DNA of 50,639 nt from Rhizobacter sp. (GTDB lineage: Bacteria > Pseudomonadota > Gammaproteobacteria > Burkholderiales > Burkholderiaceae_C), in the NCBI GenBank assembly GCA_043727255.1, contig JAYSYW010000168.1:1-50639 (forward strand), written 5' to 3'. Numbering within the stretch: position 1 is the first letter of the stretch; each line of letters starts with the position of its first letter. The translations under genes were made by a program, and so were the position numbers. The notes under the pieces are model-generated. The model saw only the letters and a program-made list of their open reading frames with translations, ran no database searches and was not told the origin of the DNA. This document shows, piece after piece, positions 40,568-46,949 of this stretch.

Positions 40568-43500
40568 ATGACTGGCAAAAAAGTCCGAGGCGGTTCCAGG
40601 GATGAGACTCCTATTCTGAATGGCCCTTACGACGAGCCCCAGTTTCACTACGCGACCACGCCTGACGGCAACCTCGACTACCGCGACAAACGCCCTGGCC
40701 GACGCATCTTTGCGCCCGAGACGCCCCAAGTTCCCTTGGGGTCTGAGGCTCAAGGCGGGATGTTCGACATCAACGACTTCTCTGCCAGGTACCGCGACCA
40801 ACTGGTCAATCAGCTCCGCGAGCAAGTGACCGCGTGGCGCAAAGAGGGCTATGCCGGCGTGACCAGCCGGGTGACCCGAGACTTGCTTTCGTTCTGGTTC
40901 GAGAACCCTGAGCGGCCCGCGTGGCAGCGCCTTTTCTACGCCCAGAGAGAGGCGGTCGAAACGGCCATCTGGCTCAACGAAGTCGCCGAGAAGTCCAACG
41001 CGGGCACCCATTTGCTGAACCAGCTTCGCGAGGCTCGGCAAACCGTGGGCACGGGTGACGATGTGCTGCCCCGCATGGCCTTCAAGATGGCCACTGGCAC
41101 GGGCAAGACCGTGGTCATGGCCTGCCTGATCGTCTACCACTACCTCAACCGCAACCAGTACCGCAACGACGCGCGATACGCCGACTACTTTTTGTTGATC
41201 GCCCCCGGGGTCACCATCCGTGACCGGCTGAGTGTGTTGCGGGTGGACACCCATGCCGCCAGCGACATCGACGCGCAGGACTACTACCGGCAACGCAAGT
41301 TGGTGCCTCCTGCCTATGCCGGTTTGCTGGAAGGTTTGAACGCCCGCATCGTCATCACCAACTACCACGCCTTCGAGCAGCGTCTGATAGGGGGCAACAA
41401 AAAGAGCCCGCTCGACGGAAAGATCGGTGCCGACGGCAAGAAGGTCGAAGCGCGCGAAGACGAAGCACTGATGCTCAAGCGTGTGCTGGGCCCATTCAAG
41501 CCCGGGCGACGTCTGCTGGTGCTCAACGACGAGGCCCACCACTGCTACCTGCCCCGGGCCAAGGGCCGAGACACCGAAGAAGAACAAAGCGCCACTGAAA
41601 ACGAACGTGCGGCGGTCTGGTTTTCGGGTGTTCGTGCCATTGCCAGGCGCTGGCAGGTGCGCAGTGTGTATGACCTGTCTGCAACGCCTTACTACCTGTC
41701 CGGCTCTGGGTGGCCTGCGTACAGCTACTTCCCTTGGGTCGTCACCGATTTCAGTCTGATCGAAGCCATCGAGGCCGGCTTGGTCAAGATTCCCTTTCTG
41801 CCGGTGGATGACAGCTCGCAGGCCATCGGCGAGCCGGTGTTGCGTCATCTTTATGAGCACTGCAAAGAGTCGCTGCCACGCAAGGGCCAACGAACGACGC
41901 GCAAAGAAGCCGCAGACACGACCGAGAAAAAAGCCAAACCACGCAAAGGTGGGCAAACGGCTTTTGAGGCCCCACCTGAGCTGCCGGCCTTGCTGCGCAA
42001 TGCACTTGAGCAGTTCTACCGGCACTACGAAGCCTACGAACAAGGCTTGCGCGAGCAAGGTGAACAGTCTCGCGACTTGTACAGCGCTCCGCCCGTCTTC
42101 ATCGTGGTGTGCAGCAACACCACCGTCTCGAAAGAAATCTACAAACTGCTTGCGGGCTATGAAACCCTCGACGAACGCGGCAACCCCTTTGCCGTGCCGG
42201 GCACGCTGCCCCTGTTCTCGAATTTCGACCCGGTGACGCGGGCCGCGCGTCGCAAGCCACCCACCTTGCTGATCGACTCCGATGCGCTTGAGCACTCGGG
42301 GCAGATTGACGAAGACTTCAAACGTGTTTTTGCGCCCGAGATTCAGGCTTTCAAACGCGACTACCGGGTGACCCACCCCGAGAAATCGCTTGATGCGCTG
42401 TCAGACGCAGACATCCTGCGCGAAGTGGTCAACACCGTGGGCCGCGAGGGCAAGCTGGGCCAGCACATTCGTTGCGTGGTCAGCGTGGGCATGCTGACGG
42501 AGGGCTGGGATGCCAACACCGTCACCCACATCGTCGGTGTGCGTGCGTTCGGCTCACAACTGCTGTGCGAGCAAGTGGCCGGTCGGGCGTTGCGCAGGCG
42601 TCAGTACTTCATCGACCCCAAGACCGGCAAGTTCCCGCCCGAGTACGCGCACATCATCGGCGTGCCCTTCAAGTTTTTCAAAGGCGGGCAGACCGAGCTG
42701 CCCCCGCCGCAAGACATCAAGTTGCTGCGGGCACTCGACGAGCGCAGCGAACTGGCGATTGAGTTCCCCAACCTCGTGGGCTACCGCATCGAACATGCGC
42801 ACGACGTGGTGCGTGCCGACTTTTCGGGCACACCGAAGTTTGCGATCGACCTGCACCGCATGCCCGTGCGCACCGAACTCGGCAATGCGTTTTCATCAGA
42901 ACGCGACGAACTGCGGGCCGACCCCTCCCGCGTGCGCGACCAAGAGGTGGTGTACTGGATCGCCAGCCGTGTGCTCTCGCGCTACTTCCGCGACGAAGCC
43001 GGCCGTCCCCAATTGGAAAAGTTCGGTGACCTGCGTCGCATCGCGCAAGTCTGGTACGACACAAAGATCGAACTCATCGGCGAGACCGACCCCCGCTTCA
43101 AGCGCCTCGTGCGCTTTGAAGACGAAGCCCGTGTCATCGCCAGTGTTCACCAAGGCATTGAAGCCGCCGCCGTTGAAGAAGGGTTGCAGGGTCAGGCCAG
43201 CATCGTGCCCTTGCTCAACCGCTACAACCCCCGGGGCTCGACCCACCACGTGCACGCGGCCACCATCAAGCCGGTGTTCCCCACCAAAAAGAGCCACGTC
43301 AACCTCGTGGTCGCCGACACCGGCAGTTGGGAGCAGATCGCAGCCAAAACCTTCGAGCAGATCGACGCCGTTGAGAGCTACGTCAAAAACGCCTTTCTCG
43401 GTTTTGACGTGCCCTACGTTGACAACACCGGGGCAGAGCGGCGCTACCAGCCCGACTTTCTCTGCCGGGTGCGCACCCCGGGCGGTGAGCTTTTCAACCT

Positions 43501-44300: not shown

Positions 44301-46949
44301 ATGGCAACAAAACCCCGCACTCCGAAGAAGCCCGCCGCGCCTAAGGCCAGCGCGGGCGACAGCGCCAAGGGCAGCCACCAGCCCGTCGATGCCATCGAGC
44401 ATGCGGCCGAACGGCCGTTCATCCCCAGCCGCGAAGAAGCGGGCTGGGAAGCCGAAGCCATTGCCGGGCGGCCTACGGTCAAGAGCGTGCCCTTGAACCC
44501 CGTGACCCACCGCGGGCAAGACCCCGAGCTGTACTGGCTGGGCAAATACGGCAGCACCGACGCGCAAACCGCGCTTGACGTGGACATTCGCAGCCTCTAC
44601 CGCCACGAGCACATCGCCCCCGAGACCTTGATCTCGCGGCTTTACCGCTTCAAAAACCGCGAGGCTTCGCAGAACGACCTGTTCGTCAACGAGTTGCATG
44701 GCAACCCGCTGGCACTCGACGAAGACCAGAAGCCGGGGGCCTATTACCACCGCAAAGACAAGTGGCAAAACCGGCTGATTCAGGGTGACAGCCTGCTGGT
44801 GATGACCAGCCTGCTCGAACGCGAAGGCATGGCCGGCCAGGTGCAATGCATCTACATCGACCCGCCGTATGGCATCAAGTACGGCAGCAACTGGCAGATG
44901 CGCATGAACGACCGCAACGTCAAAGACGGCGCGGACGACAACCTCAGCGGTGAGGGCGAAGTCATCAAGGCCTTCCGCGACACCTGGGAGCTGGGCATCC
45001 ACTCATACCTCAGCTATCTGCGGGACCGTTTGCTGGTGGCGAAGGAGTTGTTGACAGCGAGCGGATCGTGTTTTGTGCAGATCAACGATGAGAACGTGCA
45101 CCTTGTGCGAAATCTCGCCGACGAAGTTTTCGGCAGTGAGAACTACGTCGTGACCTTGGTCGTTAAGAAAAAGTCCGCTACGAGTCAGACTGAATCAGTC
45201 AACGACTTCATTTTGTGGTGTACGAAAAACTTTGAAGAGGCGAGGAAGAAGTTTCGGAAGCTCACTGTCGCGAAGGATCCGTTTGCTGAAAAGAGCCGCT
45301 ACAAATGGATCGAGTTTTTAGACGGCGAGAGGAAGTTGGTGAAGGAGTGCTCCGACGATGAATTGCGAGCCCCTGGTATTCGTCTCCTCAATGATGACTA
45401 CCCGTTGGTCAGCCAGGACGAGAGCGAAGCACGTAGCAAGCCCTACTACCTTGAAGGCGATCCCCAGCCGTACAACCCAGGGAAGGGGCGGCACTGGACT
45501 TATGACCCTGAGGTCGGGATGAAGCGCCTTGAGACGCTCAACCGGCTTCGAGCCGCCAATAAGACCCTCAGAGGGGTCGTGTATCACGACGACTACCCGC
45601 GTGAAGCGCTCTCGAACATCTGGGACTTTCATGGCGAGCGTGCACCACAGTATGTTGTGCAAACAAACAGGGGAATCGTTGAGCGCTGCATTTTGATGAC
45701 CACCGACCCGGGTGATTTAGTACTGGACCCCACCTGCGGCTCTGGAACGACCGCCTACGTTGCTGAGCAGTGGGGACGGCGCTGGATCACAACCGATACG
45801 TCACGTATCGCGCTCAACATTGCGAAGACTCGGCTGATGACAGCGGTCTTTCCCTGGTATCGACTGAAGGACCCCGCAGGCGAAGATATTCGTTTTGGGT
45901 TTGACTACAAGCAAGTGACGAACATTACGCTGAAGTCGCTAGCGAACGATCAGTTACCGGATGTTGAGGACTTGTTTGATGCCCCGCATGAAGACAAGAA
46001 AAAGCTGCGTGTCGCCGGCCCGTTCACCGTCGAAACCTTGCAAGGTTTCGAGCCACTGCCCCCCGACGCCATCGACGAAGCCAACACCTCGACGGACAAC
46101 GTGCAGCGCTTCACCGAACGGGTGTTCGAGCACCTCAAACATGCGGGCATCAAAAACGGTCTGAAGAACGAAACCGCCGTCTTCAACCGGGTCGACATGC
46201 TCAATGAAGACTCGGGCAGCCTGCACGCCGAGGGCTGGTACGGCAGTGCCGAGGGCGAGCGCAAGGCTTACTTCCACATCGGCCCGCAGTTCGGCACGGT
46301 GAGCCGCAAGTCGGTGAACGACGCCATTCGGGCGTGCAGCCGGCGGGCCGATGCCGACTGGCTGGTGATTTTGGGCTTTGGCTTCGAGAGCGATGTGGAC
46401 AACCGGCAGGTCACGCTCAAGGTCGGCAGCTTCGAGGTCACCAAGGTGCGCATGCACGACGACCTGATGCAAGACGGCCTGATCAAAAAAGACAAAAAGG
46501 CCGCCAGCTTTGTGACCATCGGCGAGCCCGAGATCGGCCTCATCGATGCCACCCTGCCCGACGGCCGCGCCGCCAAGCAGGTTGAAATCTTGGGCCTCGA
46601 CATCTACGACCCGATTGCCGACGAGGTGAAGCCACGCAGCGCGGCCGACATCTCTTACTGGATGGTGGACGACGACTACGACGGGGCCAGCTTCATCGCG
46701 CGGCAGGTGTTTTTCTGCGGCGGCGACCACGACGAGTTCGACAAGTACAAGCGTGGCCTGTCGCAACTGGCCGCCGCGAGCGTGAAGGCGAAGGTCGAGC
46801 GCACCTTGAAGGTCGAGATCGACGACGAGGCTTTCGAGCGGGTGTATGGCTTCAAGTCGCACCCCATCGAGGCCACACGCGGGCGTCGAGTGGCTGTGCG
46901 GGTGGTGAGCCAGTTTGGTGAGGAAAGCACCAAGGTGTTGAGCATCTGA
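44301..46949 (+). CDS. mod: Type III-like site-specific DNA methyltransferase (Mod, beta-class amino-MTase)
   Basis: NRLIQGDSL, catalytic IYIDPPY, then variable TRD, then SAM-binding [12 protein letters not shown]-terminal [12 protein letters not shown]. Confidence 0.92.

What the first reader, a model, noticed from the sequence alone, without database searches (positions are those of the whole stretch)
40568..46949. Type III-like RM system whose restriction subunit appears to be the antitoxin of an embedded VapC toxin (candidate guard defence system)
Seen: the order is res-vapC-mod. vapC overlaps the res stop (ATGA, 43822-43825) and mod starts 2 nt after vapC, so the three form one coupled operon. 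VapC keeps its PIN catalytic residues, and there is no vapB ORF. Res continues past its nuclease domain into an acidic tail that resembles the toxin-binding half of VapB. Established: vapC genes normally lie directly downstream of, and often overlap, vapB, which is the position the Res tail occupies here. Enterobacterial VapC/MvpT cleave initiator tRNA. The PrrC anticodon nuclease is encoded inside the EcoprrI type I RM locus and is activated when phage T4 Stp interferes with the RM enzyme. Inference: VapC is held inactive on the Res/Mod complex. Phage anti-restriction proteins, Res proteolysis or host shut-off would release it and cause abortive infection or dormancy; the coupling would also make the RM locus addictive. 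I know of no description of a Res-VapB fusion but cannot verify novelty without a search.
Basis: partly seen in the sequence, partly recalled or inferred. Interest (0 to 1): 0.95.

Follow-up and report, generated by a model that had tools for sequence, protein, structure and literature searches.

The report
Restriction enzyme with swappable antitoxin tail
This bacterial restriction enzyme ends in a short tail derived from a standard antitoxin, and the tail type matches the toxin gene placed right behind it across dozens of related bacteria, so the enzyme likely keeps that toxin switched off and would release it if the enzyme is lost or destroyed, possibly as a back-up against phages.

Summary
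The layout res-vapC-mod is real. The last ~40 residues of Res (BPTD_3080 family) are homologous to the toxin-binding half of stand-alone VapB. In 80 related loci, all 23 with this tail are followed by vapC. All 16 with a different tail, homologous to DUF2281-like antitoxin C-termini, are followed by mazF/pemK (one truncated). Neither toxin profile hits behind the 37 tail-less Res genes. Three further loci carry other tails before other PIN toxins. Tail and toxin have been swapped together at least six times within one betaproteobacterial Res clade, and 119 of the 120 nearest Res proteins listed carry one of the two tails. Tails and toxins are under purifying selection. A complex model scores 0.65 against a best control of 0.02, but VapBC is a solved type. 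So 'Res is the antitoxin' is well supported computationally, and the system is broader than first read. What frees the toxin (phage-driven loss of Res, or only loss of the cassette) is untested. Ten literature searches found no Res-antitoxin fusion; the functional precedents are PrrC and Ronin.

The parts
40494..40523 (+). Terminator-like hairpin and T run after fba; upstream boundary of the cassette
   Evidence: consensus scan only; no sigma-70-like promoter found on + between it and res
40568..43825 (+). res: BPTD_3080-family Type III-like restriction subunit, 1085 aa, SF2 helicase plus PD-(D/E)xK-like nuclease plus antitoxin tail
   Evidence: NF046055 993 bits over residues 13-1034; PF04851
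41096..42586 (+). Helicase motifs: Walker A GTGKT (41096-41110), DEAH (41528-41539), motif VI QVAGR (42572-42586)
   Evidence: same in tailed and tail-less relatives
43451..43519 (+). Nuclease motif PD...E-I-T-G, a family-wide variant with T/S where K is usual
   Evidence: Foldseek gives only weak hits, top TnsA, E 6.6e-3
43700..43822 (+). VapB-derived antitoxin tail, Res 1045-1085; F1065, R1069 and R1077 align with Phe62, Arg66 and Arg74 of R. felis VapB2, W1051 roughly with Trp46
   Evidence: VapB2 residues from PMC3326315 passages
43822..44298 (+). vapC: PIN-domain toxin, 158 aa, with D9, E58, D123, E144 and a clade-specific insertion after the first helix
44301..46949 (+). mod: Type III-type methyltransferase, 882 aa; DPPY at 44859-44870 precedes the SAM-binding motif at 45726-45746
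   Evidence: PADLOC MTase_III E 7.5e-149; PF01555

Best explanation
The restriction subunit carries the toxin-binding half of a VapB antitoxin at its C-terminus and is predicted to bind and silence the VapC ribonuclease encoded right behind it, so the toxin would be freed whenever Res is degraded, no longer made or truncated, likely as a fail-safe on the restriction system that includes back-up defence against phages. Shown: the fusion, its homology to VapB, strict pairing of tail type with toxin family, repeated joint swapping, purifying selection. Predicted: binding across the VapC active-site groove. Inferred: overlapping stop/start codons give roughly matched amounts of Res and toxin; the DNA-binding half of the antitoxin is gone, so the usual autorepression is lost and toxin control rests on Res protein level; phage host shut-off or attack on Res would tip the balance and stop translation.
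For: Pairing: 23 of 23 A-tail loci have VapC and 16 of 16 B-tail loci have MazF; neither toxin profile hits behind the other 41 of 80 loci. Six independent pairs on starred branches of the Res tree all agree, sign test p 0.031. Loci outside the profiles agree: L122 and L132 (A, VapC), L123-L124 (B, MazF), L127-L129 (weak B-like, MazF). Homology: the A-tail profile scores 9 of 28 stand-alone vapBC antitoxins at E <= 8e-7 within that small set, the nine whose toxins rank highest against the window's VapC apart from the fused one; three of them scanned are PF04014 in their N-terminal 40 residues. The B-tail profile scores the upstream ORFs of the three nearest MazF loci at E <= 2e-9, and these are DUF2281-like, below cut-off; cross-controls are negative. 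L045's tail is 62% identical over 40 aa to a stand-alone antitoxin-like ORF. Pooled dN/dS over 12 close pairs: tail 0.165, toxin 0.138, Res 0.11. Complex: 0.65 against best control 0.02, runs agree in 100% of contacts, partner pLDDT about 70; the mark was reached by 116 of 157 solved and 2 of 215 mismatched pairs; the interface includes E58 and D123. Fused VapCs form two starred clades apart from stand-alone ones. 119 of 120 listed nearest Res proteins have a tail. Two database proteins join a Res N-terminus directly to a tail. A linear neutralising peptide works when fused to an unrelated carrier (PMC10440598, passage).
Against: No experiment exists; nothing here tests a phage trigger. The complex pass may reflect likeness to solved VapBC structures. 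A flexible C-terminal tail (pLDDT falling to about 60) has no obvious route to be displaced by a DNA-mimic protein binding elsewhere. Three of 43 tailed loci (L003, L026, L037) show a res frameshift upstream of the tail with an intact toxin, so broken res is not rarer than in tail-less loci; two of the three also have a broken mod and L026 differs by one base, so sequencing error is plausible but not shown. The res-mod slot holds many unrelated guests, including intact separate TA pairs, in tail-less loci, so fusions could arise by chance at a hotspot. The A and B profiles were built from the same loci, and one of six scan patterns came from the tail.
Confidence: 0.5

Rival explanations
1. Addiction only: the tail neutralises the toxin, but the benefit is to the cassette. 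Loss or truncation of res kills the cell, so the restriction locus is stabilised; phages play no part.
For: The cassette is patchy: not found in 26 same-genus genomes, with fba next to purC in 4 of 5 checked. Decayed loci lose the toxin and keep the tail (L004, L012/L126, L022, L125). Res-N-terminus-plus-tail remnants exist (singletons, context unknown).
Against: A separate TA pair in the same slot would also be addictive, and such pairs occur, so addiction alone does not explain why fusion is nearly fixed in the clade or why two toxin families persist. Frameshifted res with intact toxin in 3 of 43 loci.
Confidence: 0.25
2. Tethered effector: the toxin stays bound to Res and is switched on allosterically when the complex meets foreign DNA or an inhibitor, as proposed for PrrC and Ronin, without Res being destroyed.
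For: The tail follows the terminal helix of the nuclease domain at a nearly constant distance in both tail types. A Type III system kills in response to Ocr (10.1101/2023.04.06.535777, passages).
Against: Two unrelated toxin folds are interchangeable at this position, which fits a passive tether better than a fitted allosteric path. Linker length varies by more than 10 residues.
Confidence: 0.1
3. Locked-in accident: TA pairs land in the res-mod slot, a deletion fuses the antitoxin remnant to res, and the pair persists only because losing the tail first is lethal.
For: The slot is an insertion hotspot; scattered single fusions occur (L045, L051, L060).
Against: The toxin could be lost freely, yet it is under purifying selection (dN/dS 0.138), keeps its catalytic residues and has diversified in the fused state.
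Confidence: 0.1
4. A small antitoxin is made from an internal start inside the res 3' end, as in Rpn proteins (known to me from a reference title), so full-length Res is not the working antitoxin.
For: In-frame GTG/TTG codons occur upstream of the tail in many loci.
Against: No start position is shared across the 40 loci scanned, 4 have none within 75 codons, and only 2 have an SD-like word.
Confidence: 0.05

Closest known systems
VapBC with AbrB/MazE-type VapB (R. felis VapBC2, PDB 3ZVK; enteric VapC/MvpT)
   Same: PIN toxin directly behind, and overlapping, the antitoxin sequence; tail aligns to VapB2 residues 59-75, which block the active sites (E 0.016, weak; PMC3326315 passages); toxin profile hits these structures at E 1e-28 to 2e-33.
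   Different: No DNA-binding AbrB domain; its place is taken by a 1034-aa restriction subunit; the module is exchangeable for a MazF module.
PrrC with EcoprrI (Type IC R-M)
   Same: Translation-targeting nuclease gene embedded in an R-M locus and held in check by the R-M enzyme (PMC12707154 and PMC3632139, passages).
   Different: PrrC is an ABC-ATPase/HEPN protein with Type I R-M and no captured antitoxin peptide; here a canonical type II toxin is paired with a recognisable antitoxin fragment fused to a Type III-like Res.
Ronin and EcoR22I (10.1101/2023.04.06.535777)
   Same: R-M subunits suppress a linked toxin (RonA by HsdMS); a Type III system causes death on sensing Ocr (passages).
   Different: Ronin lacks HsdR and uses a membrane toxin; EcoR22I has no separate toxin. 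Neither has an antitoxin fusion.
Type III R-M (EcoP15I type); NCBIfam BPTD_3080 family
   Same: SF2 helicase-nuclease Res plus a Mod with DPPY before the SAM-binding motif.
   Different: Order is res-mod, whereas EcoP15 has the MTase upstream; weak match to PADLOC REase_III (E 4e-4); no PDB sequence match; C-terminal antitoxin tail.
Immunity-dormancy/suicide coupling hypothesis (PMC3506569, PMC3632139)
   Same: Proposes that components of immune systems act as the antitoxins of linked toxins (passages).
   Different: [quoted passage not shown]

Membership tests
Type II VapBC TA | PIN-domain toxin with intact acidic active site | tested here: met
Type II VapBC TA | Cognate neutralising sequence encoded immediately upstream | tested here: met
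   complex model
Type II VapBC TA | Small separate antitoxin with DNA-binding domain (autorepression) | tested here: not met
   Tail is in frame with Res; no AbrB hit
Type II VapBC TA | Toxicity and neutralisation in cells | not testable with these tools
   needs bench test
tRNA(fMet)-specific VapC | NCBIfam curated cut-off | tested here: not met
   NF047863 94 bits against 140; NF010285 69 against 143; target unknown
BPTD_3080 family restriction endonuclease | NF046055 above cut-off | tested here: met
   993 bits against 800
Type III R-M | Res with SF2 helicase motifs and C-terminal PD-(D/E)xK nuclease | tested here: inconclusive
   Helicase motifs intact; nuclease motif is a family-wide variant; fold match weak
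Type III R-M | Mod-type N6/N4 methyltransferase | tested here: met
Type III R-M | One-strand methylation of an asymmetric site; cleavage needing two inverted sites | not testable with these tools
   needs methylome and enzyme assays
R-M guard systems (PrrC, Ronin) | Toxin gene embedded in or linked to the R-M operon | tested here: met
R-M guard systems (PrrC, Ronin) | PrrC or RonA-type effector | tested here: not met
   Effector is PIN or PemK; no PADLOC hit for VapC
R-M guard systems (PrrC, Ronin) | Activation by phage anti-restriction | not testable with these tools
   needs bench test

The most novel reading that the evidence does not exclude
A modular guard platform: a widespread Type III-like restriction subunit has repeatedly captured the neutralising peptides of ordinary antitoxins (VapB, DUF2281-like and others) as plug-in C-terminal tails, turning any cognate toxin into a dead-man's switch that senses destruction or shut-off of the restriction enzyme during phage infection.
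Probability: 0.4. Interest if true: 0.92.

Novelty: new variant of a known kind. Interest (0 to 1): 0.8.

Why it matters
It supplies a concrete, two-protein test of the 2012 hypothesis that immune proteins themselves serve as antitoxins, with a defined 40-residue interface that can be deleted without touching the enzyme. A 2025 review lists degradation of restriction enzymes as a phage strategy not yet identified experimentally (PMC12707154); this design would be a natural sensor of it, and a screen for such phage factors. It also shows how standard TA modules can be rewired to monitor another protein. Annotation pipelines miss it: sources name these proteins only as restriction enzymes or helicases, and the tails have no Pfam hit at cut-off, so the toxins look orphaned.

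Tried and rejected
Assembly error or hidden vapB: rejected. Nuclease decay specific to tailed Res: rejected, motifs are the same with and without tail. Tail families in Pfam or NCBIfam: no hit at cut-off. B-tail against PDB: nothing; the A-tail search also gave unrelated short matches that rank at or above the VapB hit, so that hit alone is weak. Res against PDB by sequence: none. Depletion of broken res in tailed loci: not seen. Phage carriage: 3 viral loci, all tail-less; 40 plasmid records match the family at under 60% identity, and their tails were not read. Att-like repeats at the cassette ends: none evident. Expression: no RNA holder listed. C-type tails (L051, L060): only a by-eye likeness to one of three upstream ORFs, not counted as shown. 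Literature: ten searches; BPTD_3080 and the Res subunit/PIN combination returned 0 papers; none of the listings or passages read describes a Res-antitoxin fusion. Subscription journals and supplements were not searched or read; supplementary tables of embedded-gene surveys (10.1101/2024.01.29.577857) could list such loci. The genomic context of the Res-remnant proteins could not be obtained.
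Full report
Observation. The three genes lie as described: res 40568-43825, vapC 43822-44298 (ATGA overlap), mod 44301-46949. Res is a BPTD_3080-family enzyme whose model ends at residue 1034; Mod matches PADLOC MTase_III; VapC is a PIN protein with its acidic residues. The cassette sits between fba and purC. It was not found in 26 same-genus genomes, and fba abuts or nearly abuts purC in 4 of 5 checked. A single contig spans the junction without differences in two runs that may be the window's source.

Pairing of tail and toxin. A scan of species-representative genomes found 131 relatives and kept the best 80. Reading each to its stop codon gave 23 loci with the window's tail type (A), 16 with a second type (B, ending in a W-D-N-E-E-D-E-I-W-like motif), one with both in tandem (L022), three with other 40-60-residue tails (L045, L051, L060) and 37 ending within 20 residues of the nuclease domain. 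In the 1 kb behind the res stop, a VapC profile hits exactly the 23 A loci and a MazF profile exactly the 16 B loci; 15 of the 16 pass the PemK cut-off and L012 is truncated. The three other tails precede other PIN proteins. These profiles were built from the same loci, so the negatives and the held-out loci carry the weight: L122 and L132 are A with VapC, L123-L124 are B with MazF, L127-L129 have a weak B-like tail with MazF. Among the 120 best of 387 protein hits, 61 have tail A, 57 tail B, one both and one neither; the query included the tail, which favours A but not B. Among 29 more distant family loci scored from whole-genome searches (two others had no C-terminal match and were dropped), none has tail A or B.

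Origin of the tails. The A profile, run over 1.84 billion representatives, gave 51 hits. Besides Res fragments and three repeat proteins, many are short proteins, several visibly the C-terminal half of AbrB-type VapB; only P0050 has the PF04014 hit among 32 scanned. For the 28 nearest stand-alone VapC loci in 400 same-family genomes, nine upstream antitoxins match the profile at E <= 8e-7 in their C-terminal half. The HMM alignment to R. felis VapB2 is weak (E 0.016) but places F1065, R1069 and R1077 on Phe62, Arg66 and Arg74, which anchor the peptide and contact the catalytic residues (PMC3326315, passages); the R1069 column is at least 90% conserved. The B profile matches the C-termini of small DUF2281-like ORFs upstream of the three nearest of six MazF hits; the other three had no upstream ORF by my rule. 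In each case the N-terminal part of the antitoxin is absent and Res takes its place.

History. On a FastTree tree of the Res C-terminal core without tails (80 rows; L004 left out as too short), all 40 A/B rows form one side of a starred branch, all Pseudomonadota, and starred branches force at least 6 changes for A and 7 for B. Six independent pairs differing in tail all differ in toxin the same way (p 0.031). Both types occur at the same fba site (A: window, L001, L008; B: L009, L011, L012, L013, L016, L018, L020), which suggests exchange of the module by recombination (inference). Fused VapCs form two starred clades of 12 and 13 rows apart from 28 stand-alone ones; one origin is not excluded. 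So fusion arose a few times and the fused modules then spread and diversified. dN/dS over 12 close pairs is 0.165 for tails, 0.138 for toxins and 0.11 for Res. Decayed loci keep the tail and lose the toxin (L004, L012/L126, L022, L125).

Structure. AlphaFold2 places the tail after the long terminal helix of the nuclease domain, as a short helix and a coil of falling confidence. The tail-VapC model scored 0.65 against a best control of 0.02; runs agreed in 100% of contacts, partner pLDDT about 70; 116 of 157 solved and 2 of 215 mismatched pairs reached the mark. The interface covers E58 and D123. Like complexes are solved, so this shows likeness, not binding.

Mechanism. Shown: fusion, homology, pairing, swapping, constraint. 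Predicted: binding. Inferred: Res neutralises the toxin made from the overlapping gene; without the antitoxin's DNA-binding half there is no autorepression, so control depends on Res protein; any event that removes Res frees the toxin. Whether that event is phage-driven (0.5, with addiction as a by-product), only loss of the cassette (0.25), an allosteric switch (0.1), a locked-in accident (0.1) or bypassed by an internal start (0.05) is open. Against my reading: three of 43 tailed loci have a frameshifted res with an intact toxin, and the res-mod slot takes many guests, among them intact TA pairs with separate upstream ORFs (72 of 107 candidate ORFs scanned).

Comparison and novelty. It works like PrrC or Ronin in placing a toxin under control of an R-M subunit (passages), but is not a member of either. 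It is a VapBC by toxin and neutralising peptide, not by operon anatomy. Papers seen: passages only for 10.1101/2024.01.29.577857, 10.1101/2023.12.08.570793, 10.1101/2023.04.06.535777, 10.1101/2024.10.26.620412, PMC12707154, PMC3632139, PMC3506569, PMC3326315, PMC4963859 and PMC10440598; search listings for the rest. None of the ten searches showed a Res-antitoxin fusion. Earlier notes of this scan describe LexA-like tails on Type III Res and guest genes in a res-mod operon; they are unchecked leads. Verdict: real, probably undescribed, a new variant of R-M-linked toxin systems; interest 0.8.

Noticed in passing
L022:6700-6990 and downstream: Res ends in tail A followed in frame by tail B, with no toxin behind; a two-gene cassette that looks by eye like a Type II R-M pair replaces the toxin and the 5' part of mod. 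Possibly a snapshot of module swapping.
   Followed up: partly
P0003, P0042: Short proteins joining the first 25-37 residues of Res to an A tail; possible deletion remnants that keep only the antitoxin. Singletons with unknown context.
   Followed up: partly
L125 against L012/L126: Near-identical B-tail loci: one has a premature stop in mazF, the others a deletion from mazF into mod; two routes of toxin loss.
   Followed up: partly
L041-L080 and L092-L121, res-mod slot: Cargo hotspot: MNT-HepT, HicBA, addiction-module antitoxins, zeta/AAA_33, NYN, Abi_2, KilA-N, ORF6N, BRO, DUF559, DUF3800, IS200.
   Followed up: partly
L096:4450-4932 (oriented): A family member with a 158-residue C-terminal extension overlapping a 202-aa gene with no Pfam hit; another kind of Res tail.
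   Followed up: no
L006:7187-8926: An AAA-ATPase-like gene (by eye) is inserted between mazF and mod; L023 and L029 carry an ORF6N-like gene there.
   Followed up: no
window 43451-43519: All 81 family members inspected have T or S in place of the usual Lys of PD-(D/E)xK, with conserved lysines a few residues downstream.
   Followed up: partly
window 38094-39203 (-): ORF with helix-turn-helix-like, histidine-kinase-ATPase-like and STAS-like parts (by eye) next to fba; not examined.
   Followed up: no
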